Positions 8,897 to 36,700 of a DNA stretch of 64,000 nucleotides are shown here, piece by piece. A program made the translations under genes and the position numbers. The stretch is taken from positions 49,983 to 113,982 of the forward strand of contig JAGWOC010000001.1 in NCBI GenBank assembly GCA_028872875.1, given 5' to 3'. Within the stretch, counting starts at the first letter, position 1. The number at the start of each line of letters is the position of its first letter. The stretch comes from Chloroflexota bacterium. Its GTDB lineage: Bacteria > Chloroflexota > Dehalococcoidia > DSTF01 > JACRBR01. The notes under the pieces are model-generated. The model searched no databases, was not told the origin of the DNA, and saw nothing but the letters and a program-made list of their open reading frames with translations.

Positions 8897-9167
8897 CTCT
8901 TCAGTTGTTGCTCACGAACGGTGGCGGCAGGGGATGCCACACCAGGACGAGCGCTATTGTACGGAGGCGCGTCACTTGACGAAACGGCATAACCGTCGAG
9001 TGCCGGGTGTTATTTTCCCACCATCTTGACGGCCCACGGTGGGAATCCCGGCGTCACCGACTCGCCGGATCCGGCCCCGAAGCGGCGCGCTCGCACACGC
9101 TGAGACCGCGCGATCGATGGAGCGGGTACGAGCGAGTCCGAATCCGCCGAACGCCAGTGGCGCGCGG

Positions 9168-10502
9168 CTACGACGCGGCGAGCGCCCCCTCCAGCGAGGC
9201 CGCACCGTCGCGTTCCACGGCGTCCGCCGCCTCGAGCGCTGACTTCAAGCAGATCTCCGTCAGGTTGCCTTCGATGTCGCGCGCGTCGCCGGCGAAGTAG
9301 AGGTTCGCCGCCGTCTGCGAGCGCAGCGGCACGCGCATCGCCCGCTGCGGCGGCGTCTGCCGAAGCGCCGAAACGCGCACGTTGGGCAGCGACCGATCGA
9401 CCACAACGGCCTCGCGCCACCCCGCGAACCAGCGGTCGAGCCCGGCTTCGAGCGCCGCGCGGCGCCCGGCCAGCAGACCCTCATCGTCCGCCTCGTCGGG
9501 CGCGAGGTACGCCATCGCGTGCAGCAACTGCGCGCCCGGCGGCGCCAGGTCCGGCGTCACCTCGGAGTGCAGGCTGTAGTACAGGTCGCGCTCAATATCA
9601 AAGACGTACGCCAGATCCGTGCGCAGGCGCCGGCTGAACCCCAGATCCACGCACAGCGCCCGCACATCTTCGACGCCCGACCATCGCCCAAGCTCATCCG
9701 CCAGCGGCGAGCCATCCTCGGCGATCGACGGGGCATCCTGCGGCGGCAGGGTGCAGATGAACGCTGCGGCCTCGTGCCGCGCATCCTGCGTGACTGCCGC
9801 GATGACGCGTCCGCCGCCGGACTCAAGCCGCCGTACGTGCGCGCCGGTCACCAGCGCGCCGCCGTTCGCGCGCAGCACGCCGATGAAGGCATCGTACATC
9901 GTGCGCCAGCCGCCGCTCATGTAGCCGACGTAGTCTTTCGCGAAGAGGTTGCGCTGCAGGTGGCCCAGGAGGAATCGGGCGCTCAGCGCACGTGATGGGC
10001 GCGTGTAGGTGTTGACCGTGCCCAGCGCGACGGCGAATCGCCGCAGCCGCGCGTCGGAGACGTGCGCGTCGACCCAGTCGCCGTAGGTCTGGTCGCCGAG
10101 CGTCTCGGGCTTCGCGAAACGGATCGCCGCCATCAGCAGCGGCAGGCGCAGGCGGCTCGCGAGCGGGAAGAGCGGCGTGCGAAGCGCCTCGTGCGGGCGC
10201 GCGCCCACGGCGCCGAAGCGGTCGCCATCGGCCCAGTAGCTGCGAGTCGGCTGCACGTAACCATGCGGAATGTCCGGCACGCCAAGGCGGCGCAGGATCT
10301 CGCCGAGCACGCCGCTCTGCGGGCGATAGACCGCGTGCGGGCCGTAGTTGAGGGTGAAGCCCCGATCCTCGTACGTGTAGGCGCGCCCGCCCGGCTGATT
10401 GCCCTGTTCGAGCACCTTCACGCTGCAACCGGCCTTCGCGAGCAGCGCCCCGGTCGCCAGACCCGACACACCGCCGCCGATGATCACGACATCGCGGTTC
10501 AT
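9168..10502 (-). CDS. FAD/NAD(P)-binding oxidoreductase of the phytoene-desaturase (CrtI/CrtD) / amine-oxidase family
   Basis: ATG 10502 gives MNRDVVIIGGGVSGLATGALLAKAGCSVKVLEQGNQPGGRAYTYEDRGFTLNYGPHAV, a Rossmann GxGxxG plus CrtI-like GGRA motif. The start overlaps the anti-sigma stop (ATGA). The upstream 58 codons of the track ORF are junk. Confidence 0.8.
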   Translation of the reverse strand: MNRDVVIIGGGVSGLATGALLAKAGCSVKVLEQGNQPGGRAYTYEDRGFTLNYGPHAVYRPQSGVLGEILRRLGVPDIPHGYVQPTRSYWADGDRFGAVGARPHEALRTPLFPLASRLRLPLLMAAIRFAKPETLGDQTYGDWVDAHVSDARLRRFAVALGTVNTYTRPSRALSARFLLGHLQRNLFAKDYVGYMSGGWRTMYDAFIGVLRANGGALVTGAHVRRLESGGGRVIAAVTQDARHEAAAFICTLPPQDAPSIAEDGSPLADELGRWSGVEDVRALCVDLGFSRRLRTDLAYVFDIERDLYYSLHSEVTPDLAPPGAQLLHAMAYLAPDEADDEGLLAGRRAALEAGLDRWFAGWREAVVVDRSLPNVRVSALRQTPPQRAMRVPLRSQTAANLYFAGDARDIEGNLTEICLKSALEAADAVERDGAASLEGALAAS

Positions 10503-10804
10503 GGCGCCTCCTCTTCCTCCACTGTGGCCGTCAGGGCCTCGATCACGACCTCGATCGGCGAGCGGCCGTACGTTTCGTCGACGATCGCGCGGGTGAACTC
10601 CATGTACGCGGCGCCGGGCGTGCCGGGCTCGATGTGCGTTGCGGCATTGCCGCGCACGAAGCGCACGGTGCGGCACAGCGCGCGGTATGCGGCAGCGCAG
10701 CCGGCGCAGCCCGCGCGGTGCATCTCGACCGCCGCGCGCGCGTCACCGGACAGGTCGCCGTCGAGCAGGTCAGACAGCAGGGGCTCGATGTCACAGCAGG
10801 TCAT
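10499..10804 (-). CDS. zf-HC2-type anti-sigma factor
   Basis: 101 aa, MTCCDIEPLLSDLLDGDLSGDARAAVEMHRAGCAGCAAAYRAL, with an H-x3-C-x2-C zinc motif and an acidic tail. Its ATG (10804) overlaps the sigma-factor stop and its TGA overlaps the oxidoreductase ATG. Confidence 0.75.
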   Translation of the reverse strand: MTCCDIEPLLSDLLDGDLSGDARAAVEMHRAGCAGCAAAYRALCRTVRFVRGNAATHIEPGTPGAAYMEFTRAIVDETYGRSPIEVVIEALTATVEEEEAP

Positions 10805-11484
10805 CGCACCTCCTCGTGGCCTCGCTTCGCCACCTGCTCCCGCGCCCGCTTGATATGCCCCATCGTCGTGCAGGCGTTGCACTCGTTCTTCTGGTCGACG
10901 AGGGCACAGCGGTGCTCGAAGACCTCCGTCATCGCCTTGCGGCCGCGGTGCAGCTCCGTCTTGACGGACGCGAGCGAGGCTCCGATCGCGTGCGCCGCCT
11001 CTTCGCGCGAGAGCCCGAGCTGGTCGCACAGCACGATGGCCGCGCGCTGCTTCGCGGGAAGCGACATGGTGATGCAGTTGATGCAGGTGGCCGCGACCTC
11101 CCTGACCTCGGCCGCGCGCTCGGGCGTCAGGTAGAGGCTCTGTTCGATGTTGCGCGCCAGCTCGGAGTTCTCTTCGAACCACTGCCAGCGTCTGTCGAGG
11201 TCCCACGGCTTGCGGGCGCGCTGGTGGTCCAGGCAGGCATTCGTAGCAATCCGGTACAGCCACGTGCCGACCGACGATCGCAACTCGAACGTGCCGAACT
11301 TCGCGTACGCCTTGAGCAGCGTCTCCTGGACGAGGTCTTCGGCATCTTCGGGCGAACCGGTCATCTTCTCGCACAGGCGCAGGAGCGCGCCGCGGTGCTC
11401 CTCGGCGATCTCGCCGAAGGCCTCCTTGTCGCCCGCCAGCGCGCGCTCGAGGAGCGAGACTCCGTGCGGCTCAGGTGCACCCAC
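10801..11484 (-). CDS. ECF (sigma-70 family group 4) RNA polymerase sigma factor with a Cys-rich C-terminal extension
   Basis: Sigma2 region LVQETLLKAYAKFGTFELRSSVGTWLYRIATNACLDHQR and sigma4 region LPAKQRAAIVLCDQLGLSREEAAHAIGASLASVKTELHRGRKAM, followed by an extra roughly 38 aa (FEHRCALVDQKNECNACTTMGHIKRAREQVAKRGHEEVR). The likely start is GTG 11484 (VVGAPEPHGV), with AAGGGGGA 6 nt upstream. Confidence 0.8.
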   Translation of the reverse strand: MGAPEPHGVSLLERALAGDKEAFGEIAEEHRGALLRLCEKMTGSPEDAEDLVQETLLKAYAKFGTFELRSSVGTWLYRIATNACLDHQRARKPWDLDRRWQWFEENSELARNIEQSLYLTPERAAEVREVAATCINCITMSLPAKQRAAIVLCDQLGLSREEAAHAIGASLASVKTELHRGRKAMTEVFEHRCALVDQKNECNACTTMGHIKRAREQVAKRGHEEVR

Positions 11485-11605: not shown

Positions 11606-11797
11606 TCAGGCTACGGGCTCCGGCGGCAGCAGCGGTTCGAGCGAAGCGAGCAACCGGGGCGCATGCTCGGCCGCCGCGCGCCACAGGCGATCGCCCACGA
11701 TCTCGTCGTAGTCATGCACCAGTACGTCTCGCATTCCGGCGACAGCGCGCCACGGGATCTCCGTGCTTCCAAACTCAGGGTCATGCCGCCACTTACC
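11606..11797 (-). pseudogene. HepT-like (DUF86) toxin, C-terminal remnant only
   Basis: GKWRHDPEFGSTEIPWRAVAGMRDVLVHDYDEIVGDRLWRAAAEHAPRLLASLEPLL contains the R-x4-H-x-Y catalytic motif of HepT/DUF86 RNases. No in-frame start and no N-terminal half: the upstream in-frame codons are Arg-rich and overlap the end of the neighbouring gene. No MntA-like nucleotidyltransferase partner is visible. Confidence 0.5.
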
Positions 11798-14796: not shown

Positions 14797-15313
14797 GCGA
14801 AAGAACAGCGGCCGGCACGGCGCGGGCCAGCGTCCAGCCGCTCACCCTGAACGAGCGGGCCGAAAGGCGTTCTCACAGATCACGCGTCACGCGCTGCAAG
14901 CTCCCCTTCCCCGCAGGGAAGGGGCCAGGGTTCGGTCCCGACGGCACGCAAGCCCGCGCGGGCTGAAGGCCCGCGCTCCCGAGCGCGCGGCGAAAGAACA
15001 GCGGCCGGCACGGCGGCCGCCCGCCTCGAACAGGCCCGCTCGCGCGCCGGACACTGGAAGGAGGAATGCCGGCGGTGGAATGCGTGGCCCGACGCCATCG
15101 CCGCGTCACGCGCGCGGGCTGCCGTATGGCCCGGATGGGAAAGCCCGCGCTACTGCAGCCGCGTATCGGGCGCTGGCCCGCAACCCCGCGCCGGCTGAAG
15201 CCCCGCGCTCCGCGTGCAGCGGTGCTGGTTCATCCGCTCGGGTGGCAACCCCGCGCGCCACGAAGAGGCCGTATCGGCCCATCGGCGTGCAACCCCGCCG
15301 CCCGGCGGGCGCC
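14797..15313. repeat. repeat-dense non-coding region (500 bp) between the beta-helix gene stop and the VOC gene start
   Basis: A 26-bp direct repeat GCGAAAGAACAGCGGCCGGCACGGCG occurs at 14797-14822 and 14990-15015. GGCTGAAG(G/C)CCCGCGCTCC occurs at about 14951-14969 and 15193-15211. CAACCCCGCG occurs three times (about 15180-15300). A 12-bp palindrome GCCCGCGCGGGC lies at about 14951. The palindromic element at 14901-14940 is listed separately. Confidence 0.75.
14901..14940. repeat. conserved palindromic element, copy A: CTCCCCTTCCCC-gca-GGGAAGGGGCCAGGGTTCGGTCCCG
   Basis: A 9-bp inverted repeat CCCCTTCCC / GGGAAGGGG (14903-14911 and 14916-14924) followed by GGCCAGGGTTCGGTC. A near-identical copy lies at 33479-33518. 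Both copies lie about 130-190 nt upstream of a minus-strand gene start (the VOC gene and katG). Confidence 0.8.
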
Positions 15314-16594
15314 TCAGGGCGTCGTCTCGCGGCAGACGCCGGGCGTGTTGTCGACGTTGCCGTAGATCGTGTTGCCGCTCGGTATGACCGCGCCGGCGCG
15401 GTAGATGCAGATCGCCGAGCCGCGGTTATCGTAGATGCTGTTCCCCGTGATGTGCCCGAGCGACGTGTTCACGAACGAGACGCCGATGCCGCGGTTGTCG
15501 TGGATGCGCGAGTTCGTCACATCGAGGTTCGCGCCCTGCGCCAGCACGCCGCCGCCGAGCCGGCCCGTCTCCGCGAGCACCACGCTGTCGTGGATGTCGT
15601 TGTTGTTGATGAGGCCGACCGCGCGCACCGGGAAGTACGGGCCGACGACGCCGTACTTCAGCGGGTCCGGGTAAGCGCGGAACTCGATCGCGTGCTCCTC
15701 GTTGCCGCTGTACTCGTCGCCGTCGGACGACATGTTCGCGCCCCAGACGAAGAGCCCCGTGAGCTTGTTGCGCCAGATGTGGTTGTTGCGCATCACCCCG
15801 CGCGTGCCCGGGAACATCACGATGCCCGTGCTCCCGCTCGCCTGGATCACGTTGCTGTCGAGGATGATGTTCGCGTCGCCGACGAACGCCGGCAGGTCCG
15901 CGAGGTAGCAGACCGGCACGTCGACGAGGCCCGGCGGCAGGAGCGAGCACGGCGTCTGGCCGGCGAAGACGCCCGGGCCCTGGTTGTCGGAGATCACGTT
16001 CTGCACGATCGCCGTCGTCGCCGCTTCGCCGACCGTCGAGACGCCGACGCCGCCGTTCTGCACGATCCAGTTGCGCTGCACCACAAGGTTCGAGCGGCGC
16101 CGCACGAGCACCGCGTCCCCCGCCATCGCGTAGATGATCGAGTCGGTGATGCGGCCCACGCTGCCCACGTCGTAGTGGATGCCGATGCCACCGCCGCCCA
16201 CATCCATCTGCTGGAAGACGATGTTCTGGCTCTGCCAGACGTAGGCGTTCGAGGGGTGTCCGTAGAACAGCATGAAGTTCTCGAACGTCAGGTCCTGGCT
16301 GCTGAAGATCAGCATGCTGTCCTTCGTGCCGCCGGCGACGATCGTCTCGTGCCGCCCGGCGCCGCGCAGCGTGATGCCGGCCTTGTTCTGGAAGAGCAGC
16401 GGCGGGTAGACGCCGGGGGCCATGCAGATCACATCGCCCGGCCGCGCGGCGTTGATCGCCGCCTGGATGTCCGCCGGCCCGGCGTTGCGGGTGCACGCCG
16501 CGGCCGCGATGCGGTGCGCCGGCGGTGCGCCGAGCGCCGCCAGCGCGGCGACAGCAACCAGTGAGACAAGCAGGCACAGCCGCGTCCGCGTCAT
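15314..16594 (-). CDS. secreted right-handed parallel beta-helix repeat protein (pectate-lyase/NosD-like fold)
   Basis: ATG 16594 with GGGAGG upstream. Signal peptide MTRTRLCLLVSLVAVAALAALGAPPA. Many repeats of the type I.NN.I..N...G........I.GN are present. The first 34 codons of the track ORF are upstream junk. The alternative overlapping ORF 15426..16655 was rejected. Confidence 0.75.
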   Translation of the reverse strand: MTRTRLCLLVSLVAVAALAALGAPPAHRIAAAACTRNAGPADIQAAINAARPGDVICMAPGVYPPLLFQNKAGITLRGAGRHETIVAGGTKDSMLIFSSQDLTFENFMLFYGHPSNAYVWQSQNIVFQQMDVGGGGIGIHYDVGSVGRITDSIIYAMAGDAVLVRRRSNLVVQRNWIVQNGGVGVSTVGEAATTAIVQNVISDNQGPGVFAGQTPCSLLPPGLVDVPVCYLADLPAFVGDANIILDSNVIQASGSTGIVMFPGTRGVMRNNHIWRNKLTGLFVWGANMSSDGDEYSGNEEHAIEFRAYPDPLKYGVVGPYFPVRAVGLINNNDIHDSVVLAETGRLGGGVLAQGANLDVTNSRIHDNRGIGVSFVNTSLGHITGNSIYDNRGSAICIYRAGAVIPSGNTIYGNVDNTPGVCRETTP

Positions 16595-16749
16595 CCTGAC
16601 CTCCCGAACCTCGCGACGACGTGGCGTCGCCGGCAGCCCTGCCGCACCGGAGCATCCTACCCGATGCGCCGCGCTGATGTCAGACCGTGGGAACATTCAC
16701 AGTTCGCACCCGCGAGTGCGAACGAAGCGGGCGGGGCAGGGGCGCGGGG

Positions 16750-17106
16750 ACGCTATACTACCTGCTGGCCGACCACCTGGGCGGCACGGTGGGCGTGATG
16801 GACACCAGCGGCAACGTCGTGGCGAAGCAGCAGTACTGTCCCTACGGCGCCGCGCGCACCGACGCGATCTCGACGGCGGCCCAGACCGATCGGCTCTTCA
16901 CCGGCCAGCGGCAGGAGCCCGGCGACGGGCGATGCGCTGGGGCTGTACGACTACCACGCGCGGTTCTACAGCACGGCGCTCGGCGCTTCGTGAGCGCGGA
17001 CACGGCACCGGCACAGCTAGTCCGTCCCCGCGCCCCGTCGCACGAGGAGTCGGCGTTCACGACGTCTGTTTCGGGGAGAGGAGTATTCTTGACGACGGGA
17101 GGCTGA
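16750..17106 (+). pseudogene. RHS repeat-associated core domain remnant (frameshifted, no upstream YD repeats)
   Basis: LYYLLADHLGGTVGVMDTSGNVVAKQQYCPYGAARTDAISTAAQTDRLFTGQRQEPGDG matches the RHS core consensus Y..DHLGS.....D.SG......Y.P.G...........FTGQ..D...GLY.Y.AR.YDP.LGRF.S.DP. The expected continuation LGLYDYHARFYSTALG is in the +1 frame (around 16925-16980) and RFVSADTAP in another frame (from about 16985), so at least two frameshifts have occurred. It ends 1 nt before the S9 peptidase ATG. Confidence 0.6.
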
Positions 17107-17107
17107 C

Positions 17108-18862
17108 ATGACGGCGGCCTGGCGTCGGCGATTCCTTGCCCCGAGCGTGTCAACGCCGCTGTGGGCGCTGGACGCTCCCGACAGACTGATGTATCGGTCG
17201 AACGCGAGCGGGAAGTGGGAGTTGCATACGTGGGACCGCACGACGGGCGTGCGCACGCAGGCCACGGAGCGGCCGGAGGGTACGCTCCAGGGTGCCATCG
17301 ACCGGACCGGCAAGTGGGTCTGGTGGTTCGACGATGAGCGAGGTAACGAGCTCGGGCGCTGGATGATCCAGCCCTTTGCGGGCGGCGAGGCGCGCGTCGC
17401 CGCGCCGGACGTGCCGCAAGCCTACACAACCGGGCTCACGCCCTGCCGTTCGTTCGCCGTGATGGGCCTCTCTCTGATGGAATCGGGCACCCGCGTGTAC
17501 ATCGTGCAGCTCGGCGCGCGTTCGAGACTCATCTACCAGCATCGACAATGGGCGGGGGAACCCGACGTGTCACGGGATGAGTCTCTGATTTGCCTGACGC
17601 ACGCGGAGCGCGGAGATATGCTTCACCCCGCGCTTCGCGTATTCACACCCACGGGCCGGACGGTAGCCGACCTCGACGACGGACCGGAGTGTGGACTCAC
17701 ATCGTTGGGCTGGTCGCCTGTGGCCGGCGACAATCGGCTGCTGGTGTTACACGAGCGGCGCGACGCGCCCGCCCTTCTCGTTTGGTCGGCCCAAAGCGGT
17801 GACCTACGCGAGTTGCCCATCGATCTGCAGGGCGACGTGGAAGGCGCCGACTGGTATCCAGACGCGTCCGAAATCCTCGTGCGGCGGACCTATCGCGGCC
17901 GATCCGAGCTGTACCGATACAACCTCTCTTCCGAGAGCTTGCGGCGTATTCCTACAGGGCCAGGGACTGTCCGGGTCGCGCGAGTGCGCCCCAACGGTGA
18001 AGTTTGGTATGGATGGTCGAGTTCCTCCGCGCCTCCGGAAGTCCGCGCCGGCGACGGCGTTCTGTTTCGGCCGCCGGGCGACCCTGCGCCGGCTGGCGTC
18101 GCTTACTCGGACCACGACGTGGCGGGCGTCCATTTCTTCATAGCGGAGCCCGAACGTCCGCGACCCCACCCAACGATCTTCATGGTCCACGGCGGCCCAA
18201 CCGCAGCCGATCTCGATATCTACCATCCCGCCGTTCAGGCGTGGGTTGACCACGGGTTTGCCGTGCTGCTCGTTAACTACCGAGGAAGCACCGGCTACGG
18301 GCGAGCATGGCGCGACGCCCTGCAGGGTGACCCGGGTTTTCCAGAGCTCAAGGACATCGCCGCTGCGCACGACTGGGTGCACGCATCCGGCATCGCTGAT
18401 CCCGCGCGGGTCATCCTGTCCGGCGAATCGTGGGGAGGGTACCTGACGCTGCTCGGGCTCGGCGTACAGCCGGAACGCTGGTCTCTGGGCATCGCGGCTA
18501 TCCCGATGGCCGACTGCGCCATGGCGTATGAAGATGTCGCAGAACCGCTCCAGGCCTACTTCCGCGCACTCTTCGGCGGCCCCCCCAGCGAGGTACAGGC
18601 GCTTTACGCCGAGCGTTCACCGCTCACGCATGCGGGGCGCATACGTGTCCCGGTGATGATCCTTGCGGGCGAGAACGACCCGCGCTGCCCGATCCGTCAG
18701 ATAGAGCACTACACCGCCCGCCTCGAAGAGCTTGGCAAGCCGTACGAGTTGTACCGCTTTAACCTCGGCCATGGCTCAGCGGTCGTCCAGGAAACGGTGC
18801 GGCAGGTGGAAGCTCAGATCGCCTTCGCGGCGCGGTGCCTCGGCACGCCCGCGCCCGAATGA
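17108..18862 (+). CDS. S9 family serine peptidase (prolyl oligopeptidase / acylaminoacyl-peptidase type; beta-propeller plus alpha/beta hydrolase)
   Basis: 584 aa. The C-terminal domain has IFMVHGGP, the nucleophile elbow GESWGGY, and D/H in GENDPRCP...LGHG. GGGAGG lies 7 nt upstream of ATG 17108. Confidence 0.85.
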   Translation: MTAAWRRRFLAPSVSTPLWALDAPDRLMYRSNASGKWELHTWDRTTGVRTQATERPEGTLQGAIDRTGKWVWWFDDERGNELGRWMIQPFAGGEARVAAPDVPQAYTTGLTPCRSFAVMGLSLMESGTRVYIVQLGARSRLIYQHRQWAGEPDVSRDESLICLTHAERGDMLHPALRVFTPTGRTVADLDDGPECGLTSLGWSPVAGDNRLLVLHERRDAPALLVWSAQSGDLRELPIDLQGDVEGADWYPDASEILVRRTYRGRSELYRYNLSSESLRRIPTGPGTVRVARVRPNGEVWYGWSSSSAPPEVRAGDGVLFRPPGDPAPAGVAYSDHDVAGVHFFIAEPERPRPHPTIFMVHGGPTAADLDIYHPAVQAWVDHGFAVLLVNYRGSTGYGRAWRDALQGDPGFPELKDIAAAHDWVHASGIADPARVILSGESWGGYLTLLGLGVQPERWSLGIAAIPMADCAMAYEDVAEPLQAYFRALFGGPPSEVQALYAERSPLTHAGRIRVPVMILAGENDPRCPIRQIEHYTARLEELGKPYELYRFNLGHGSAVVQETVRQVEAQIAFAARCLGTPAPE

Positions 18863-19094
18863 CTGCGCTCCGACAGGTCGGTTTCGACAATAGGCGACCG
18901 GTGGAGGCGATTCATGGCAATTTATCGCGCCGTGGGCATCTGCGGCACACGACGTTTCACTCAACCTTACACGTGCCGTCAAACACACGCGTTTCGTCCC
19001 GGCAGGCACGAACGTGGCGTTGACCCCGTCAGCGGATGAGCCTTAACCTCACCTCGTCAGACAGCTCGAAGCTAAACTAAGCGCTGTTCTATTC

Positions 19095-19487
19095 TTGCTC
19101 GGCGCGATAGTCAACCGGAACGGCTTCCTCTTGCTTTCGGCCCTGATCGGGGTATTCGCCTCGTGGAGGGTGGTTCATCCTGTAATTCGGAGCCATCAAG
19201 CGGAGGCCGCCGCGTCGCGGCGCGTCGCCGTCGCTATGCTCATTCTTGTCGCAATCGTGCTTGCCGGCGCGTTTACACTCGGATGGGTTCGTCTCGGTCT
19301 CGTTGTTGCCCTAGCTAGTCGTACTTGGCAGTGCGTTTATGGTGTGGAGCCGCCGCCAAGGCTGAGCGCTGCTCGCGGCGGGCGACCTCGCCGGAGAACC
19401 CGGACGGCCCGGATGGGGTTCAGGCGGCCGCCCCTCCGTCCTCCGTCCCCCGCCCCGCCTACCCCAGGCGCTCCGAGAGGAAGCTGA
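19095..19487 (+). CDS. hypothetical small membrane protein in a low-GC islet (doubtful)
   Basis: TTG-start ORF with two hydrophobic segments (FLLLSALIGVFASW and VAVAMLILVAIVLAGAFTLGWVRLGLVVALA). Codon usage is atypical for the window (ATA, GTA, ATT, CTT, TTT), local GC is clearly lower, and the 3' end overlaps the GH15 gene and turns Pro/Arg-rich. Confidence 0.25.
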   Translation: MLGAIVNRNGFLLLSALIGVFASWRVVHPVIRSHQAEAAASRRVAVAMLILVAIVLAGAFTLGWVRLGLVVALASRTWQCVYGVEPPPRLSAARGGRPRRRTRTARMGFRRPPLRPPSPAPPTPGAPRGS

Positions 19488-21486
19488 CCCGCTCCGGCTC
19501 GTGCTTCGGGCGGCCGCACGCGGGGCAGAGGTCGAAGCCCGCGCGCTTGCGGGTGAACTCGAGCACGGTGCGAACGAGCTCGGCGTGGCTCCACGTCAGC
19601 GGCGACACGGAAAGCGGCGCATCGCTGTACGGGTCCACCTGCTCGGCGAGCACGCCGCTCGGCAACGCGCGATCCGCCACCCACTGCATCAGCTCGGCGG
19701 CGGGCTGCAGCTCGGCCTCTGAGGTCGCGCGCGCGATCCGCCACTGCGCGAGCCAGAGCGTGCAGATGAACCACGGGTTGCCGGGGACATCGCCGGCATC
19801 GGGCGCACGCTGGTACTGATCGCGCTCGTAGCGCGCCAGGCCGCCGACCGGCGTCTTCACCCAGAGGCGCTCTCGCACGTCCTCCATCGTGCTGACGATG
19901 CGCGGGTCGGAGGCGTCGAACATGCCGAGCTGGAACAGGCCGCCGACGCTCGCATCGACGGTCATGTCGGGTGTGTAACCGCCATCGTCGTCGGGCGTCA
20001 GCGTCCGCACGAAGCGCCGCTCGCCTTCGTGCCAGAAGTGCTCGATCGTCGCCTGCTTCATCCGTTCCGCGGCCCCCGCCATGTGCTCCGCGTCGTCGCG
20101 GTCGCCGAAGGTGGCGAAGAAGTGGGACGCCGCCATCAGCCCGGCCCAGGTCGCCGCCACCGTCCAAGCGTGGACGCCCCAGCGCTCCTCCCAGAGATCG
20201 TACGAGGGCTTCGGCAGCCCCTCCGCGTCGACGTAGCGCAGCAGGAACTCGGCCGCCGGGCGGATCATCCCCTTGTAGAACGGCGTGATGAACTCGACGT
20301 CATGATGCCGGTCGAAGTGCCGCCAGAGCGCCCAGAGCGGCAGGCCCGTCTCGTCTTCCTGGATCGGCAACTGACGCCTGCCGTCGCGCACCCACGGGTG
20401 CCACGAGCTGGCGAGCGTGCCGTCGGTGTTGAACTTGTGCATCCAGTAGCCTTCCGGGTTCTGCACCTTCGCCAGGAAGTCGAAGGCCGGCCGCGTCGTG
20501 CCCTCGTAGCCGGCGTCGTCGAGCGCCGAGGCGACGAGCGCGCTGTCGCGCGGCCAGACGTACGCGTAGGTGTCGCGCGCGTAGGTGGCGATGTCGTAGT
20601 CGCTCGCCGCGACGATGCCGCCGTGGTGGTCGATCTGCGTGCTGATCGTCAGCAGGCTGCGCTTGAAGAGCCGGGCGACCGCGTCCGGCACGCCCTCGAG
20701 GTCGTTCTCCTCGGCGTTCGCCCAGACCTTCCAGTAGGCCTTCGTGCGCGCCTGCAAGCGCGCCGGCGACTTGTCGACGATCACCGCGTTCACGGTGGCG
20801 ACATCCTGGTACGAGGTCCCGCAGCCGATCCAGTACCACGCCGTCTCCGAGCCGTTCTCGCCGAGGACGAGCTGGAGCGCGCCGACGGAGTCGACGGCCC
20901 CCTGCACGACGGTGCTGCCGCTCAGCACGCCGTCCTCGGCGTCGCGCCAGGTGCCCTCCTTGCCGTCGCTCTCCTTTTTGCCGACGGCCCACTGGTCCAG
21001 CCCGGGGGGCCGGTTGCCCGTCTGGCCGCTCATCAGGAACCAGCGGCCGCCCTTGTAGTGGATCAGCGCCCGCTGCGACAGGTCGTAGTACGCCGTGTCG
21101 CCGATCTCCGTGCCGCCGATGTGGAAGTCGTTGTGGAAGAAGAGGCGCACCTCGCGCTGCTGCGCGCGCAGGTTGGTGACGACGAGCCGGCGCACCAGCG
21201 CGTACTCGTGGAAGTCCACCACGTCGGTACAGGCGATGCGCAGGCCGGCGGCGTCGTTCGTCAGGACGACGTCCGTCGCGAGCGTCTCCTCGACGTAGCG
21301 CTGCTCGACCTGCCAGGAGTCGTGCACCCAGCTAAAGCTGCCGTCGGCCCAGACGCCGAGCCCGAAGCGATGCCCGGCCGTGTGGTTGCGCCCGCCGATG
21401 TGCGGGAAGTAGATATCGCGCAGGTGGTAGCGGTCGTCGAAGTTGACCAGCAGACGGCCGTTGCCGATGGGGATGTCTCGCGGCAT
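19459..21486 (-). CDS. glycoside hydrolase family 15 (glucoamylase/glucodextranase/trehalase-type)
   Basis: 675 aa with an N-terminal beta-sandwich region and a C-terminal (alpha/alpha)6-type region carrying YAYVWPRDSALVASAL and WEERWGVHAWT, a GH15-like catalytic region. Confidence 0.8.
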   Translation of the reverse strand: MPRDIPIGNGRLLVNFDDRYHLRDIYFPHIGGRNHTAGHRFGLGVWADGSFSWVHDSWQVEQRYVEETLATDVVLTNDAAGLRIACTDVVDFHEYALVRRLVVTNLRAQQREVRLFFHNDFHIGGTEIGDTAYYDLSQRALIHYKGGRWFLMSGQTGNRPPGLDQWAVGKKESDGKEGTWRDAEDGVLSGSTVVQGAVDSVGALQLVLGENGSETAWYWIGCGTSYQDVATVNAVIVDKSPARLQARTKAYWKVWANAEENDLEGVPDAVARLFKRSLLTISTQIDHHGGIVAASDYDIATYARDTYAYVWPRDSALVASALDDAGYEGTTRPAFDFLAKVQNPEGYWMHKFNTDGTLASSWHPWVRDGRRQLPIQEDETGLPLWALWRHFDRHHDVEFITPFYKGMIRPAAEFLLRYVDAEGLPKPSYDLWEERWGVHAWTVAATWAGLMAASHFFATFGDRDDAEHMAGAAERMKQATIEHFWHEGERRFVRTLTPDDDGGYTPDMTVDASVGGLFQLGMFDASDPRIVSTMEDVRERLWVKTPVGGLARYERDQYQRAPDAGDVPGNPWFICTLWLAQWRIARATSEAELQPAAELMQWVADRALPSGVLAEQVDPYSDAPLSVSPLTWSHAELVRTVLEFTRKRAGFDLCPACGRPKHEPERVSFLSERLG

Positions 21487-25432: not shown

Positions 25433-25499
25433 ACGCGAGCCCTCAGCGCGCCTCGGTAGCGATGAGATGCGCTGCGCCGAGAGGCCCCCACGGAGGACG

Positions 25500-26333
25500 A
25501 TGAAGTACGGCTTCGTGCTCCCCTTCGGCGACGCGCGCACCGCCGCGGACCTCGCGCACGAGGCGGAGGCGGCCGGATGGGACGGCTTCTTCGTCTGGGA
25601 GCCGGTGTGGGGCGTCGATGCCTGGGTGTCGCTTGCGGCGGCGGCGATGCGCACCGAGCGCATCCGTCTCGGGACGATGATCACCCCGCTCTCGCGCATG
25701 CGCCCGTGGAAGCTGGCGAGTGAGGCCGCCACGCTCGACAACCTCTCCGGCGGGCGCGTCATGCTCTCCGTCGGCCTCGGCGCCGTCGATACGGGGTTCG
25801 CCGAGTTCGGCGAAGTCACCGGCCGCCGGACGCGAGCCGAGCTGCTGGATGAAGCGCTCGACATCGTGACCGGGCTCTGGCACGGCCAGCCGTTCAGCTA
25901 CGACGGCAAGCACTACACTGTGCGCCCGACGACGTTCGCGCCGCCGCCGCCGCCCGTGCAGCAACCGCGCATCCCCATCTGGGTCGTCGGCGCCTGGCCG
26001 CACCCGCGGTCGATGCGCCGCGCGCTGCGCTACGATGGTCTCCTGCCGAGCGCACGCGGCGAGGACGGTGCGATGCGGCAGGCGACACCGGACGAGTTGC
26101 GCGACATCGCGTCGCACGTCAGCGCGCGCCGCGCAGGCGCGGTGCCGTTCGACATCGTCGTCGAGGGCACGACCCCGGCCCAGGATGCGGATCGCGCGGC
26201 GGCGAAGGTGCGGGCCTGGGCGGACGCCGGCGCGACGTGGTGGCTGGAAGCGCGCTGGGACGCTGAGCAGCAGCCGGGCGCGCTGGATGGCCTGCGCCGG
26301 CGCATCGCCGCGGGACCGCCCGGCGGCGGCTGA
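25500..26333 (+). CDS. LLM-class F420/flavin-dependent oxidoreductase
   Basis: GGAGGA lies upstream of ATG 25500. MKYGFVLPFGDARTAADLAHEAEAAGWDGFFVWEP...LSGGRVMLSVGLG matches the luciferase-like family. Confidence 0.8.
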   Translation: MKYGFVLPFGDARTAADLAHEAEAAGWDGFFVWEPVWGVDAWVSLAAAAMRTERIRLGTMITPLSRMRPWKLASEAATLDNLSGGRVMLSVGLGAVDTGFAEFGEVTGRRTRAELLDEALDIVTGLWHGQPFSYDGKHYTVRPTTFAPPPPPVQQPRIPIWVVGAWPHPRSMRRALRYDGLLPSARGEDGAMRQATPDELRDIASHVSARRAGAVPFDIVVEGTTPAQDADRAAAKVRAWADAGATWWLEARWDAEQQPGALDGLRRRIAAGPPGGG

Positions 26334-26352
26334 AGCAGACACGGAGGGACAC

Positions 26353-27102
26353 ATGCCGCTCTCAGGTACGCTCGACATCCGAACGCTCGCCGGGGACGCG
26401 CCGCGCCTAGCGTCGCTGCACCCCGACCCTTGGGAGCTCGAGGACGCGCAGGTGCTCCAGCTCATGTACGAGATCGACGACGCGCACATCCTCGGACTCT
26501 TGCCGCCCGCGCTGCACCCGACGATCCCGCCCGTCGTGACGTTCACCGTCGCGCGCTTCACGGAGAGCCCCGTCGGACCGTTCACGCTGGCGCAGGCGCG
26601 GCTCGGCTGCCGGGCCGGCGTGCGGCCGCGCGGCTTCCTGCTGCGCGCGTACTGCGACGCCGCGGCCGCGCGGGACGCGCTCGCCTCGGGCTGGGGCTAC
26701 GACTGCCGGGACGGCGAGATCTCGCTGCACCGCTACCACGACAGCATCACGACGACCGTGCACGCCGACGGCGCCGACGTGCTACGGGCCTCGCTCGTCG
26801 ACCCGGAGCCGATCTCCGGCGGCGACATCCAGTACACCGCGAACATGAACCTCGCCCGCGTCGACGAGGGCGGCGGCGAGCAGGCGCTGCTCGTGCAGGT
26901 CGACCCCGAATACCGCTTCCACCACGCCGAGCGCGGCCGGCCCCGCATCGACGTCTTCGCGCGCGAGGCGTGGGCGGCGCGCGGCGTCGAGCCGGTCTAC
27001 CCGGTGGCGGCGACGTTCGCGCGCTGCGATACCGGCCTCCCGCGCATCCGCTACGTCTGCGACCCGAACAAGCCCGCGCTCGTCGGCACCCGCGAGGTGT
27101 GA
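26353..27102 (+). CDS. acetoacetate-decarboxylase-like (ADC superfamily) protein, function unknown
   Basis: GGAGGGA lies upstream of ATG 26353. FTVARFTESPVGPFTLAQARL resembles the ADC-family Y.dSPvGPY.E core. Tentative. Confidence 0.45.
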   Translation: MPLSGTLDIRTLAGDAPRLASLHPDPWELEDAQVLQLMYEIDDAHILGLLPPALHPTIPPVVTFTVARFTESPVGPFTLAQARLGCRAGVRPRGFLLRAYCDAAAARDALASGWGYDCRDGEISLHRYHDSITTTVHADGADVLRASLVDPEPISGGDIQYTANMNLARVDEGGGEQALLVQVDPEYRFHHAERGRPRIDVFAREAWAARGVEPVYPVAATFARCDTGLPRIRYVCDPNKPALVGTREV

Positions 27103-33564: not shown

Positions 33565-33740
33565 AGGACTGCCATCGCTTGTCAAGCTGTGTGTGCCGGG
33601 ACACCATCGCATGCGTTACGTAATCTTTTCAGCGCGTCAACGGTTGCTGGCCTACAACCATTGCATTAGTCCGCTCAAAGAGTAGGATCGTCCCACCATC
33701 GTCGGAATGCTCTCACGGCATGGGGCCGAAACGAGGCGGC

Positions 33741-36700
33741 ATGTTCTCAGCACGCGCGTGTGCGGGGGCCCTTGCCCTCCTGGCCATCGGCGTCATCGTG
33801 GCGGGTGGCTCGCCCGGGCCCCTGCAGGGCGCCCGGCTGCCGGCCGCTGTTGCGGTAGCGCCGGCGGCGACGCCCGCCATACCCATGGTGGCTGTCGGCG
33901 GCCGGCACACCTGTGCGCTCAACAGCAACGGCGCCGTGCGCTGCTGGGGCCGCAACGCCGACGGCGAGCTCGGCGACGGCACGACGATCAGCCGGCAGCG
34001 CCCGGCCCTCGTCGCCGGCCTGAGCAGCGGCGTCACGGCGATCGCCGCGGGCTTCTCGCACACCTGTGCGCTGACCACCGGCGGCGGCGTCAAGTGCTGG
34101 GGCAGCAACGCCGACGGCGAGCTGGGCGACTTCACGCAGGTGAACCGATCGATGCCGGTCGACGTGATCAACCTAACGACCGGCGTCGTCGCCATCTCCG
34201 CCGGCGACCGCCACACGTGCGCGCTGCTGGCGGCCGGCGGCATGCGCTGCTGGGGCTACAACGTCTACGGCGAGGTCGGCAACGGCACCAGCGGCAACCT
34301 CTGGCTCGGCGCCGTCGACGTCTGCACGAGCGGCTCCGGCATTGGCTGCGCCGGCGGCGCGCCGCTCACCGGCATCGCATCGATGTCGGCCGGCGGCATC
34401 AACACCTGCGCCGTGACGACGGCCGGCGCCCTGAAGTGCTGGGGCGGCAACTACAGCGGCCAGTTGGGCCTCGGCATCCTGTCGGACAGCCCGCTGCCGC
34501 CCGGGGGCGTCTGTCCTACGTCCCCGGACGCCAACGCCACGTGCATCTCCCTTCCGACCGACGTCCCGAGCCTGCAGAGCGGGGTCGCGGCGGTCAACGC
34601 GGGCCAGACCGCGTGCGCGCTGACCACGGCCGGCGGCGTGATGTGCTGGGGGCTCAACAATGTGGGGGAGACCGGCAGTGGCATCGTGTCGCCCTGCAAC
34701 CCGAAGGTGCCGCCGCAGCCATACGTGGCGTGCGATCGCCCGCAGCCCGACCCGGCCGCTGTGAGCGGCCTGAGCAGCGGCGTCGCCGCGATCTCGGGCG
34801 GCTGCGCACTGCTGTTGACCGGCGGGGTGAAATGCTGGGGAGAAAACCTGTTCGGCCAGATCGGCGACGGCACGACAACCGTCCGGACGACGCCGGTGGG
34901 CGTGTTGGGCCTGGGGTCCGGCGTCGCATCGATCGGTCCGGGCCAAGACGCCGTGCACCACTGCGTCACGATGGCCGCGGGCGGCCTGAAGTGCTGGGGG
35001 TCGAACAGTTGGGGCCAGTTGGGCGCGACATCTGCCGACACTTGCTTTCTCGGCTTTGCCTGCAGCCTCGTGCCGATCGACGTGCAGCAGTGCACGATCT
35101 GCGTGCTCGACATGTCTTTCGAGCACCAGGTCTATCCCGACGAGGCCAACTGGGCGCCGGTCGCCGCGCAAGGGACGGTCGATGGCAACCAGGTGCGCGT
35201 CAAGGCGACGCTCCGGAACCAGGCGGGCACCGATCAGCCGGTCACGGTCGAGTTCCGTGACGCGGACACGGGTACGCTCCTGCCCGGCGGCTCGATCGAT
35301 GGCACGGTACCGGCGTCGGGCGAGTTACCCGTCACCTACGTCTGGAATACAGACGGTTTTGCCTGGGACGGCGGCGCCGCGCGCAGCCCCCGGCACGTCC
35401 GCGTCACCGTCCTGCAGGGCGCGACGACGCAGGACACCGACATCCGCGGCATCAAGATCGTCCCGAAGCCGGTCGTGCTGGTGCACGGCTGGAACAGCAA
35501 TTTCGGCACCTGGGCGTCATACCAGGGGTTCCTGACGTCGGTCAGCCCGGACTGGAAGGCGTTTGCTGTCGGCGACGGCCAGGCGCCCGGCGTCATGAAC
35601 ACGGGCTCGATGTCCCATCCCTTCACGCTGACCAACACCATCGACCAGAACGCCATCGAGATGTCGCAGTACGTGCACGGCGTCCGCCAACAGATGAACG
35701 CATGGCACGTCGATGTGGTCGCGCACTCCATGGGCGGGCTGATCTCGCGGGACTACATCCAGTACTGGATGCCGCCGGACGCGTATGCGCGTCCCGTCAT
35801 CGACCATCTCGTGATGCTCGGCACGCCGAACCAGGGCACCTCGTGCGCCGACCTCGGGGCGGCCATCCTTGGGCCGCTGGGAGCCGGCGCCTTCCTGTTT
35901 CCGGCGACCCTGCAACTCACCAAGACCTACCTCGCGATCTTCAACCAGCAGGTGACGAACCGCCGCGGCGTGAAGTTCTCGATTTCCGCAGGCGACCCGA
36001 TCCCGATCACTTGCCTCGAAGGTGCGGGCGACGAGATCGTGCCGTACCGAAGCGCCCTCATGCTCGACCCGCTGCCCGGGACGCCGATCACCGACTCGGA
36101 GTCGCGCTCGATCCTGCACCACCACATGCCGGGCGATCCGGGCCAGTTCAACCAGTTCGTCAAGCCGCGGCTCACCGGCGTCCTGCCAGCGCCCGCGGCA
36201 GCGTCGGCCGCTGGTGCGCACGCGCCCGTACGAGCTGTCGCCGCCGTTGCACCGCCGCCGGTCGTCGCGCCGCAGATCCTGGCGGGAGTCGGTGTCGAGG
36301 TCGCGGCCGGGGGGATGGCGGACGTGCCCTTCACGGTGACCGATGGCACGCGCATCGGTGTGACGCTGATCGCCGCGTCCTCGGTGACGACAGAGCTGCA
36401 CAATCCAGTGGGTACGGTCGCGGCCTCGGCCGCGGCGGGCAGCGACGCCGCGCAGGCGGGCCTGCGCACGCTCACGGTCGATACCCCCAGCGCCGGCGTC
36501 TGGACGCTGCACCTCGTGAACACGGATGGCGCCGCGCCGGCAGACGTCGCCGGGTCGGCGTGGGTCGACGGCAGCGCGGTGCAGCTCGTCCTCGCGCCGC
36601 CCACACCGGCTCCGGACGGCTCAGTCCCGCTCACCGCCACGCTCACCAACGGGGGCAGCGCGCTGGCGGGCGCCACCATCACGGCCATGCTCACGGGCGC

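What the first reader, a model, noticed from the sequence alone, without database searches (positions are those of the whole stretch)
16750..17106. Frameshifted RHS core-domain remnant next to a secreted beta-helix protein and an S9 peptidase
Seen in the sequence. YYLLADHLGGTVGVMDTSGNVVAKQQYCPYGAARTD...RLFTGQRQEPGDG is followed by out-of-frame LGLYDYHARFYSTALG and then RFVSADTAP. This reproduces the RHS repeat-associated core consensus (Y..DHLGS...D.SG.....Y.P.G......FTGQ..D...GLY.Y.AR.YDP.LGRF.S.DP) but needs two frame changes (around 16925-16935 and 16981-16990). It looks like a 1-nt loss in GGC-GC-TTC versus expected GGC-CGC-TTC. No YD-repeat shell, toxin domain or immunity gene is present. 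The fragment abuts the S9 peptidase ATG (17108) and is divergent from a secreted parallel-beta-helix protein. A low-GC islet with an odd-codon-usage ORF follows downstream (18863-19330). Inference: this is the decayed tip of a former RHS / polymorphic-toxin locus, marking an old accessory insertion.
Basis: partly seen in the sequence, partly recalled or inferred. Interest (0 to 1): 0.55.

Follow-up and report, generated by a model that had tools for sequence, protein, structure and literature searches.

The report
Decayed orphan RHS toxin cassette remnant
This is a dead 316-bp leftover of a bacterial RHS toxin "tip" gene, sitting in a small insertion hotspot where related genomes carry an intact toxin cassette, a defence cassette or nothing, so it is ordinary genome decay but well documented.

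Summary
Window 16687-17002 (+) is a relic of an RHS "core fragment + toxin tip" gene.

- **Family match:** the frame-corrected peptide passes TIGR03696 (34.6 bits, cutoff 32.5). The uncorrected ORF does not.
- **Intact ortholog:** a 391-aa ORF in a related Chloroflexota MAG (L047) aligns at 91%.
- **Lesions:** +4 nt at 16926-16929 inside a paralog-like tract, -1 nt at 16986/7, and nothing left of the gene after 17002.

The same GH15 | beta-helix junction exists in five states:
- empty, 97 bp, in an outgroup (L042)
- intact orphan RHS-CT plus TM-protein array (L047)
- stub plus DruA/NurA/HerA cassette (L038)
- two stubs plus an Imm32 immunity gene (L026)
- in the window, the stub, a foreign S9 peptidase (GC3 0.77 against about 0.95 for native genes), a small TM ORF and an 80-bp toxin-tip relic

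- No genome examined has a YD-shell gene at this locus, so this was an orphan-type cassette array.
- The low-GC ORF belongs to the old array and is a candidate orphan immunity gene.
- The S9 peptidase is the later intruder.

This is a known kind of decay, so interest is low to moderate.

The parts
15314..16594 (-). Left flanking core gene: secreted right-handed beta-helix protein (426 aa)
   Evidence: Pfam Beta_helix 8.3e-26 and NosD. Orthologs at 96%, 92% and 74% amino-acid identity flank the same site in L026, L038 and L042.
16595..16671 (.). Beta-helix upstream spacer that is still alignable with the empty-site outgroup; not part of the island
   Evidence: blastn window 15311-16671 = L042 9281-7926; alignment A2.
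16672..19428 (.). Accessory island (2.76 kb) inserted between GH15 and the beta-helix gene
   Evidence: Outgroup L042 has 97 bp here. Homology with L026 and L038 resumes at window 19423-19429. No tRNA gene or recombinase nearby.
16687..17002 (+). Relic of an orphan RHS gene: GTG start and short leader (16687-16737), then an RHS core fragment (16738-17002) broken by two frame changes and cut off before the DPxG core end
   Evidence: TIGR03696 34.6 bits after frame correction. tblastn of the L047 391-aa ortholog: residues 1-80 = 16687-16926 (91%, E=2.8e-43) and residues 82-99 = 16934-16987 in another frame. blastn homology with L047 ends at 17002. In-frame GC3 is 0.947, which is native-like.
16918..16975 (+). 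Paralog-like (probable gene-conversion) tract containing the +4 nt indel (16926-16929) that causes frame change 1
   Evidence: Identity to the orthologous L026 copy 2 is 81.5% plus 4 gap positions, against 97% in the first 107 bp. Identity to the L032 orphan paralog is 91%. L047 and L026 share the other version, so the window's is derived.
16986..16987 (+). Site of the 1-nt deletion (frame change 2), which restores the original frame
   Evidence: Window GGCG-CTTC against L047 GGCGCCTTC.
17003..19076 (.). Lineage-specific foreign segment that replaced the core end, the first toxin tip, its partner gene and most of a second tip; it carries the S9 peptidase gene 17108-18862 (+)
   Evidence: No counterpart in L026, L038, L047 or L042. 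Pfam Peptidase_S9 1.6e-38. GC3 is 0.768 against 0.95-0.96 for flanking genes. The only close database relative is the identical protein P0037; the next best is 63%. None of 23 orthologous loci elsewhere has RHS, GH15 or beta-helix neighbours.
19077..19330 (+). Small membrane-protein ORF (called 19095-19487, TTG start; hydrophobic helices), a candidate orphan immunity gene of the old array; low GC
   Evidence: blastn 19077-19299 = L047 226-1 (74%, E=3e-37), where it follows the second CT fragment. About 62% amino-acid identity by eye. GC3 0.646. No Pfam or PADLOC family.
19350..19428 (+). 80-bp relic of a toxin-tip (CT2-type) coding sequence
   Evidence: 83% identity to L026 9088-9169 (the N-terminus of ORF160) and 80% to L047 673-622 (the CT2 fragment). 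ORF160 and CT2 are homologous to the CT of the intact 391-aa gene (blastp 1.75e-8 and 2.9e-12).
19459..21486 (-). Right flanking core gene: GH15 glycoside hydrolase (675 aa)
   Evidence: Gene calls with PF00723 in L026, L038 and L042. tblastn 96%, 95% and 76% identity.

Best explanation
**What it is.** Window 16687-17002 is a non-functional relic of an orphan-type RHS toxin cassette, that is, a short core fragment fused to a C-terminal toxin tip.

**How it arose.**
1. In the common ancestor of a small clade of about 70%-GC Chloroflexota, an array of such cassettes with small membrane-protein partner genes was inserted between the co-directional housekeeping genes GH15 and beta-helix. The array had no YD-shell delivery gene at this site.
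2. One relative (L047) still has the first cassette intact. It is 391 aa, with a complete NPLRYTDPTGH core end and a Gly/Ala/Cys-rich tip of about 260 aa.
3. In the window's lineage the cassette was inactivated in four ways:
   - a patch of paralog-like sequence with a +4 nt indel
   - a 1-nt deletion
   - replacement of everything from core residue ~105 (in L047's numbering) to the middle of the array by about 2.1 kb of foreign DNA carrying an S9 peptidase gene
   - deletion of most of a second tip, leaving an 80-bp relic
4. One small membrane-protein ORF of the array survives.

**Shown:** homology, lesions, synteny, the empty site, and the compositional foreignness of the S9 gene.

**Inferred:** the order of events, gene conversion as the source of the patch, the immunity role of the membrane ORFs, and membrane-targeting activity of the lost toxin.
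For: - **Identity of the relic:**
- **Intact ortholog at the same junction:** blastn window 15295-17002 = L047 3902-2199, 90.8% over 1,710 bp. The L047 ORF passes TIGR03696 at 55 bits across the full model 1-76/76.
- **Exact lesions:**
- **Same stub, same 5' junction, different 3' breakpoints:** L038 breaks at about window 16853, L026 copy 2 at 16975, and the window at 17002.
- **Empty site in outgroup L042.** More distant relatives have a ProRS-(APH)-beta-helix arrangement without RHS.
- **Imm32 next to the stub in L026:** 32.5 bits against GA 27. Zhang 2012 (PMC3482391) lists Imm32 as the immunity partner of RHS-borne Ntox7 and Ntox37, including in Chloroflexi.
- **Array leftovers in the window:**
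- **GC3 values:** stub 0.95, native genes 0.95-0.96, S9 0.77, TM ORF 0.65.
- **Family size and architecture:** 264,899 representatives at E<=1e-3. Full-length members are 2,000-2,900 aa with this motif 150-400 aa from the C-terminus, and many 340-480 aa proteins start with it.
Against: - No full-length rhs gene was found at the locus in any lineage, so how an orphan array arose here is unexplained. Classical dissociated tips lie downstream of a parent rhs gene.
- Only 64 kb of the window's genome could be examined, so the proposed conversion donor was not identified.
- The L047 contig ends inside the array, so the complete ancestral layout up to GH15 is unknown. The relative order of the TM ORF and the CT2 relic differs between the window and the visible part of L047.
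- The direction of the S9 event (gain here rather than loss elsewhere) rests on GC3 and absence from relatives, not on a rooted reconstruction.
- The -1 nt change is a CC-to-C difference that could be a sequencing error.
- The first 107 bp of the stub are more conserved between lineages (97-98%) than the flanking genes (91-95%; P about 0.005 to 0.13 depending on the pair). This is unexpected for free decay.
Confidence: 0.9

Rival explanations
1. Sequencing or assembly artefact: the frame changes are errors, or the MAG contig is chimeric at a repeated RHS core, so no real pseudogene exists.
For: The second change is a one-base difference in a CC run. RHS cores are repeats that often break assemblies, and many database relatives are contig-end fragments. 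The L047 contig ends inside the array.
Against: - The +4 nt indel sits in a cluster of 10 substitutions and is not a homopolymer slip.
- Even with both frames repaired, the gene lacks its shell, its core end and its toxin.
- The same left junction occurs in independent assemblies from at least four lineages (L026-L031, L038-L040/L048, L047 and the window).
- Both flanks align continuously with relatives.
Confidence: 0.04
2. Exapted leader: the relic is retained because its promoter and open frame now drive or regulate the downstream S9 peptidase (and, in L038, the DruA cassette).
For: - The ORF 16687-17106 keeps the ancestral GTG start, stays open through two compensating frame changes, and stops 1 nt before the S9 ATG.
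- The first 107 bp are 97-98% identical between lineages against 91-95% for the flanks.
- In all three derived lineages, new cargo lies directly downstream in the same orientation.
- A -35-like 9-mer, TTCACAGTT, marks the island's left edge and recurs upstream of DruA.
- Orphan rhs cassettes in Salmonella have internal promoters (PMC7043789).
Against: - The consensus scan found no sigma-70-type promoter on the + strand.
- The S9 gene has its own GGGAGG ribosome-binding site.
- Breakpoints differ in every lineage.
- An open 139-codon frame has roughly a 7% chance in 70%-GC DNA (my estimate).
- The conservation excess is weak in two of three pairs and can equally come from conversion by conserved paralogs.
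Confidence: 0.05
3. Active recombination anchor: the conserved core stub serves as the homology patch through which new cassettes are repeatedly captured, as in the Jackson circular-intermediate model, so the site is a working cargo-exchange platform rather than a dead relic.
For: - In L026, a 1.37-kb insert is flanked by ~40-bp direct repeats of the core start. That is what a single crossover with a circle carrying a core fragment would produce (PMC2935791).
- The window shows a paralog-like tract.
- L038 alone has 33 extra in-frame RHS-like nucleotides.
- There are four different contents to the right of one shared left junction.
Against: The S9 and DruA cargos show no RHS homology at either end, and they join the stub at different, apparently arbitrary positions. 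This looks like illegitimate replacement. Only the L026 event has the signature of homologous capture.
Confidence: 0.08

Closest known systems
Dissociated rhs C-terminal 'tips' / orphan rhs-CT-rhsI modules of Enterobacteriaceae (Jackson 2009, PMC2935791; Poole 2011, PMC3150448; Koskiniemi 2014, PMC3967940)
   Same: - A core fragment of variable length is fused to a variable toxin tip and followed by a small partner gene.
- Modules are strung in arrays.
- There are signs of recombination through the core (direct repeats in L026, a mosaic tract in the window).
- Relics and pseudogenes are common.
   Different: - No parent full-length rhs gene lies upstream at this locus in any lineage examined.
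- The host is a high-GC Chloroflexota MAG rather than a T6SS-bearing proteobacterium.
- The window's copy has lost its tip entirely and holds an unrelated S9 peptidase in its place.
RHS repeat-associated core domain (TIGR03696) at the end of YD-shell toxins (Rhs/TcC/teneurin-like cocoon proteins)
   Same: The motifs YxLxDHLGS...Y.PYG...FTGQ...GLY.Y.ARFY...GRF.S.D are present. The intact ortholog has the full domain, including the DPxG autoproteolysis-type end.
   Different: The window copy covers only model positions 1-51 of 76, needs two frame corrections, and has no YD repeats upstream.
Polymorphic toxin-immunity cassettes with Imm32 (Zhang et al. 2012, PMC3482391)
   Same: The sister lineage has an Imm32-family gene immediately downstream of its stub. 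That paper lists Imm32 with the RHS-borne Ntox7 and Ntox37 toxins, including in Chloroflexi.
   Different: The window itself has no Imm32. Its surviving small ORF is a membrane protein with no assigned family.
Variable-cargo hotspots ('defence/accessory islands') between conserved core genes (general knowledge, not tested against a specific catalogue)
   Same: The same two flanking genes are found with an empty site, a toxin array, a DruA/NurA/HerA cassette or a metabolic gene in close relatives.
   Different: There is no integrase, tRNA gene or att-like repeat at the site, and the island is very small (0.1-4.7 kb).

Membership tests
RHS repeat-associated core domain (TIGR03696) | Profile score at or above the curated cutoff (32.5 bits) | tested here: met
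   34.6 bits, E=2.1e-8, but only for the frame-corrected peptide. The ORF as encoded gives no hit.
RHS repeat-associated core domain (TIGR03696) | Complete domain, including the C-terminal NP....DP.G end that precedes the toxin | tested here: not met
   The match covers model positions 1-51 of 76. No such motif occurs in any frame after 17002. The ortholog L047 has it (NPLRYTDPTGH; model 1-76/76, 55 bits).
Full-length RHS / YD-shell toxin | Long YD-repeat shell (>1000 aa) upstream of the core in the same frame | tested here: not met
   A divergent beta-helix gene starts 93 bp upstream. tblastn and Pfam find no other RHS material in the 64-kb window. The same truncated start occurs in L026, L038 and L047.
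Orphan / dissociated rhs tip (Jackson 2009; Poole 2011) | Begins with a fragment of the conserved core | tested here: met
Orphan / dissociated rhs tip (Jackson 2009; Poole 2011) | The core fragment continues into a variable C-terminal toxin domain | tested here: not met
   Lost in the window after 17002; only an 80-bp tip relic remains at 19350-19428. Met in ortholog L047, which has a CT of about 260 aa with no known family.
Orphan / dissociated rhs tip (Jackson 2009; Poole 2011) | Cognate immunity gene immediately downstream | tested here: inconclusive
   The window keeps a small membrane ORF (19095-19330) homologous to an ORF of the L047 array, but it has no family assignment. L026 has a bona fide Imm32. 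Immunity function was not tested.
Orphan / dissociated rhs tip (Jackson 2009; Poole 2011) | Lies downstream of a full-length rhs gene of the same clade | tested here: not met
   No parent gene was found at the locus in the window, L026, L038 or L047. The rest of the genomes could not be searched.
Genomic island / variable hotspot | Same flanking genes with different content in relatives, and an empty site in an outgroup | tested here: met
Genomic island / variable hotspot | Integration machinery or target (integrase, tRNA gene, flanking att repeats) | tested here: not met
   No tRNA gene, no convincing flanking direct repeats, and no recombinase among the ORFs of the interval.

The most novel reading that the evidence does not exclude
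The RHS core stub is not just debris. It may be a persistent docking-and-expression site: a conserved ~100-bp homology patch with its own start signals, through which unrelated cargo (toxin tips, a DruA/NurA/HerA defence cassette, an S9 peptidase) is repeatedly captured and expressed. That would make orphan RHS fragments a general gene-capture platform in Chloroflexota.
Probability: 0.07. Interest if true: 0.6.

Novelty: new member of a known kind. Interest (0 to 1): 0.3.

Why it matters
Its main value is for annotation and as an example:
- The 139-codon ORF upstream of the S9 peptidase should be annotated as an rhs pseudogene relic, not as a protein.
- The S9 peptidase is a recent foreign arrival.
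- The low-GC ORF is a leftover of a toxin-immunity array.

More broadly, the five states of one junction form a compact natural time series. They show how polymorphic-toxin cassettes are gained, patched by paralogs, overwritten by unrelated cargo (including a defence cassette) and eroded in uncultured Chloroflexota, a phylum where RHS biology has hardly been studied and where no T6SS-type delivery context is evident.

Tried and rejected
- **Exact-sequence look-ups** of the window's S9 and beta-helix proteins, and of P0037, found no contig. The window's own genome could therefore not be explored beyond 64 kb.
- **Synteny through the S9 peptidase** led nowhere. The 23 orthologous loci (48-60% identity) have no RHS, GH15 or beta-helix neighbours.
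- **S9 peptidase as an RHS-delivered toxin domain** was considered and rejected. It has its own start and ribosome-binding site, and it aligns end to end (from residue 3-14) with stand-alone 580-590-aa orthologs.
- **Motif and feature scans** gave nothing relevant:
  - Rfam: nothing credible.
  - tRNA genes: none.
  - Tandem repeats: nothing relevant.
  - Promoter/terminator scan: only a minus-strand promoter-like site for the beta-helix gene.
- **Pfam, NCBIfam and PADLOC** gave no family for the window's TM ORF, L026's TM75, TM81 and ORF160, or L047's CT, 196-aa protein and CT2 fragment.
- **A 33-nt deletion in the window** relative to L038 was my first reading. L047 shares the window's short form, so L038's extra RHS-like 33 nt are either ancestral and lost twice or patched in by conversion. 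This is unresolved.
- **The perfect 14-nt inverted repeat** bracketing the stub (16739-52 / 17023-36) does not extend further. My own rough estimate is that about 0.15 such repeats would occur by chance in this region, so it may be chance.

Full report
**1. Checking the observation**

- GTLYYLLADHLGGTVGVMDTSGNVVAKQQYCPYGAARTDAISTAAQTDRLFTGQRQEPGDG is in one frame.
- DALGLYDYHARFYSTALG is in the next frame.
- RFVSADTAP is back in the first frame.

The two shifts compensate, so a 139-codon ORF (16687-17106, GTG start) remains open and ends 1 nt before the ATG of the next gene.

The frame-corrected peptide scores 34.6 bits (E=2.1e-8; cutoff 32.5) on TIGR03696, the RHS repeat-associated core domain, over model positions 1-51 of 76. 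The ORF as encoded scores nothing. Pfam gives only a sub-threshold PF03527 hit.

A search of 5.8 billion proteins returned 36 relatives (best E=4e-29), from Chloroflexota/Limnocylindrales-type metagenomes wherever a source names the organism. They carry the same motifs in one frame, for example P0001 ...FTGQRQEPAAGDALGLYDYRARFYSTLVGRFVSAD. The resemblance is therefore far beyond chance.

- a secreted-looking beta-helix protein on the opposite strand (15314-16594)
- an S9 peptidase (17108-18862)
- a 59%-GC stretch (18863-19349) in a 70%-GC window

No other RHS material is present in the 64 kb.

**2. The same locus in relatives**

P0007 is a 66-aa ORF, 86% identical to the query. It lies in a syntenic locus of a sister lineage (L026-L031, for example GCA_040960765.1). 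There the same 426-aa beta-helix gene and the same 675-aa GH15 gene, followed by ProRS, flank the RHS fragment, but there is no S9 peptidase. Flanking DNA is 93-95% identical to the window.

A second close lineage is L038, L039, L040 and L048, with the beta-helix protein at 92% identity. It has a DruA-NurA-like-HerA/DUF87 cassette between the two genes. The alignment with the window nevertheless runs from the beta-helix gene through the first ~110 bp of the RHS fragment (window 15295-16853, 89.6%).

An outgroup (L042; beta-helix 74%, GH15 76%) has the two genes co-directional and only 97 bp apart. Homology to the window stops at 16671 on one side and resumes inside GH15 on the other. More distant relatives have ProRS-(APH)-beta-helix and no RHS.

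So window ~16672-19428 is an insertion into a conserved gene string, and the site carries different contents in close relatives.

**3. The intact ortholog**

I scanned metagenome contigs for the 42 nt of the stub that are identical in all three lineages. This found JADEYI010001494.1 (L046/L047, GCA_015470965.1).

There the stub is the start of an intact 391-aa gene that is divergent from the beta-helix gene. It reads VGAFTVRTRECARSGRGIGAGTLYYLLADHLGG...FYSTTVGAFASADSQGSQGSDRYAYVSDNPLRYTDPTGH, followed by a Gly/Ala/Cys-rich C-terminal domain of about 260 aa. It passes TIGR03696 over the whole model (55 bits, 1-76/76).

The window aligns to this contig continuously from the beta-helix gene to window 17002 (90.8% over 1,710 bp), so the two are orthologous.

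Downstream in L047 come three further elements:
- A 196-aa protein with two hydrophobic helices starts 13 bp after the stop.
- A second, 5'-truncated tip fragment (CT2) follows. It is homologous to the first CT (blastp E=2.9e-12).
- An ORF follows whose visible part is about 62% identical in protein (read by eye from the translations), and 74% identical in DNA, to the window's low-GC ORF at 19077-19299.

The contig then ends.

The window's 19350-19428 matches the N-terminal part of CT2-type tips (80% to L047 673-622; 83% to L026 9088-9169). The low-GC 'islet' and the 80 bp next to GH15 are therefore leftovers of the same toxin array, not a separate insertion.

In L026 the ORF just after the stub (10284-10457) is an Imm32-family immunity protein (32.5 bits, GA 27). 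Zhang et al. 2012 (PMC3482391) list Imm32 as the partner of the RHS-borne Ntox7 and Ntox37 toxins, with both toxin families recorded in Chloroflexi among other phyla.

**4. The lesions in the window's copy**

Alignment against L047 shows four lesions.
- **Indel with substitutions.** A +4 nt indel at 16926-16929 lies within a 58-bp tract (16918-16975). The tract differs from the orthologous sequence shared by L047 and L026 at 10 positions, giving 81.5% identity against 97% in the first 107 bp. The same tract is 91% identical to a paralogous orphan core elsewhere in the sister genome (L032). I interpret this as a gene-conversion patch from a paralog.
- **Deletion.** A 1-nt deletion lies at 16986/7 (GGCGCCTTC to GGCGCTTC).
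- **Truncation.** Homology ends completely after 17002, before the DRYAYV..NP....DPTG core end.
- **Missing tip.** The rest of the first tip is absent.

The 5' truncation, meaning a GTG start plus a 16-residue leader joined to the core at ...GTLYY, is shared by all four lineages and predates their split.

Each lineage has a different 3' breakpoint:
- L038 breaks after ...YWPYGAA, at window ~16853.
- L026 copy 2 breaks at window 16975.
- The window breaks at 17002.

The stub is therefore not maintained as a coding sequence. Its in-frame GC3 (0.947) equals that of native genes (0.95-0.96), so it is an old or native-derived sequence.

**5. The S9 peptidase is the intruder**

Window 17003-19076 has no counterpart in any relative. 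It occupies the place of about 2.0 kb of array in L047 (2199 to 226).
- The S9 gene's GC3 is 0.768.
- Apart from the identical protein P0037 (NCBI Chloroflexota MAG, 126-kb contig), the best of more than 5,600 relatives is 63% identical. That set includes proteins from the sister assemblies.
- Orthologs elsewhere are stand-alone genes of 580-590 aa with the same N-terminus and unrelated neighbours.

The S9 peptidase is thus a horizontally acquired gene that overwrote the middle of the array. It is not an RHS payload.

**6. How it works**

The window's element does not work as a toxin. It lacks a delivery shell, the self-cleavage end and the toxic tip. It is a pseudogene relic.

The ancestral unit is of the type described for Enterobacteriaceae as dissociated tips or orphan rhs-CT/immunity modules:
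- a core fragment of variable length plus a variable tip, arrayed, and exchanged by homologous recombination through the core (PMC2935791)
- reactivatable by recombination with a full rhs gene (PMC3967940)
- or acting as internal toxin-antitoxin pairs (PMC7043789)

Recombination through the core is visible here too.
- L026 carries a 1.37-kb insert flanked by ~40-bp direct repeats of the core start.
- The window has the paralog-like patch.
- L038 alone has 33 extra in-frame RHS-like nucleotides (GREIAVRQAPDASGT).

The glycine-zipper-like hydrophobic C-terminus of the L047 tip, and the membrane-protein partners, suggest a membrane-targeting toxin. That is inference only, because no family could be assigned.

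**7. What does not fit, and the rivals**

- **No parent gene.** Classical tips lie downstream of a parent rhs gene, and none is seen here in any lineage. The origin of a parentless array is open. One possibility is deletion of a parent gene down to the ~50 bp at 16672-16721. Another is insertion of an already truncated array.
- **Excess conservation.** The first 107 bp of the stub are more conserved between lineages than the flanks: 2-3 differences where 6-9 are expected, with P from 0.005 to 0.13. Three further observations go with this:
  - The ORF remains open.
  - Its stop abuts the S9 start.
  - A -35-like 9-mer (TTCACAGTT) at the island edge recurs upstream of DruA in L038.

  Together these keep alive, at low probability, the ideas that the stub is an exapted leader or promoter, or a recombination anchor. 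Against them, breakpoints differ in every lineage, the cargos have no RHS homology at their ends, the scan found no + strand promoter, and conversion by conserved paralogs explains the conservation.
- **Sequencing artefact.** A pure artefact is unlikely, because the +4 indel is embedded in substitutions and the truncations are independent of the frame changes.

**8. Comparison with known families, and verdict**

The profile of this core finds about 265,000 cluster representatives. Full-length proteins are 2,000-2,900 aa with the motif 150-400 aa from the C-terminus, and many 340-480-aa proteins begin with it. The family and the cassette architecture are therefore commonplace.

The window's element is a new, decayed member of a known kind. 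Interest is low to moderate. The case is not surprising to a specialist, but it gives an unusually clear multi-state picture of one small hotspot in uncultured Chloroflexota.

Noticed in passing
L038 3617-7630 (also L039, L048); same site as window 16672-19428: In a 92%-identical lineage the GH15 | beta-helix junction holds DruA (PADLOC 4e-114), a NurA-like 373-aa protein and a HerA/DUF87 ATPase, directly downstream of the RHS stub. DruA without DruB-E, paired with a NurA/HerA module, is an unusual combination.
   Followed up: partly
window 16696-16704; L026 8503; L038 7890, 7677 and 13354: The AT-rich 9-mer TTCACAGTT (-35-like TTCACA) marks the shared left edge of the island in all lineages. 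It recurs just upstream of DruA and in one other intergenic region of L038. It is absent from the outgroup loci examined.
   Followed up: partly
window 16739-16752 and 17023-17036: A perfect 14-nt inverted repeat (GGGGCGCGGGGACG / CGTCCCCGCGCCCC) brackets the RHS relic. The right arm lies 20 bp inside the foreign S9 segment. It may be chance or a trace of the replacement event.
   Followed up: no
L026 8526-8565 and 9930-9985: Direct repeats of about 40 bp of the RHS core start flank a 1.37-kb insert carrying two small membrane-protein ORFs (75 and 81 aa) and a CT2-type tip fragment (ORF160). This is the signature expected from a single crossover with a circular tip-carrying intermediate.
   Followed up: partly
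L047 1336-2511 (-), 733-1323 (-), 276-815 (-): An intact 391-aa orphan RHS gene has a C-terminal domain of about 260 aa that is Gly/Ala/Cys-rich, with a glycine-zipper-like hydrophobic stretch, and matches no Pfam or NCBIfam family. It is followed by a 196-aa two-helix membrane protein and a second tip fragment. This is a candidate new toxin/immunity pair.
   Followed up: partly
L032 7206-10402 (GCA_040960095.1): A second RHS locus in the sister genome has a 673-aa ORF with RHS repeats, core and CT, then a 107-aa ORF, then an orphan core-only ORF (P0001, 133 aa) that ends right after RFVSADSVRPPDAP. This is another eroding array.
   Followed up: no
window 9145-11053; 11761-11782; 25443-26348: Other differences from the sister genome L026:
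- A flavin amine-oxidase gene (9168-10676) is present only in the window.
- Most of a HepT/MNT toxin-antitoxin pair (L026 3184-3841) is missing in the window.
- A 380-aa ORF without any Pfam hit (25443-26585, minus strand) is present only in the window.
   Followed up: no
window 33720-40448 (+): A 2,242-aa ORF has N-terminal RCC1-like repeats and a DUF7379 domain. Most of its length has no family assignment.
   Followed up: no
window 17108-18862 (+): The S9 peptidase has GC3 of 0.77 in a genome whose native genes have about 0.95. Its nearest non-identical relative among 5.8 billion proteins is 63% identical, so it is a clear recent horizontal acquisition of unknown source.
   Followed up: partly
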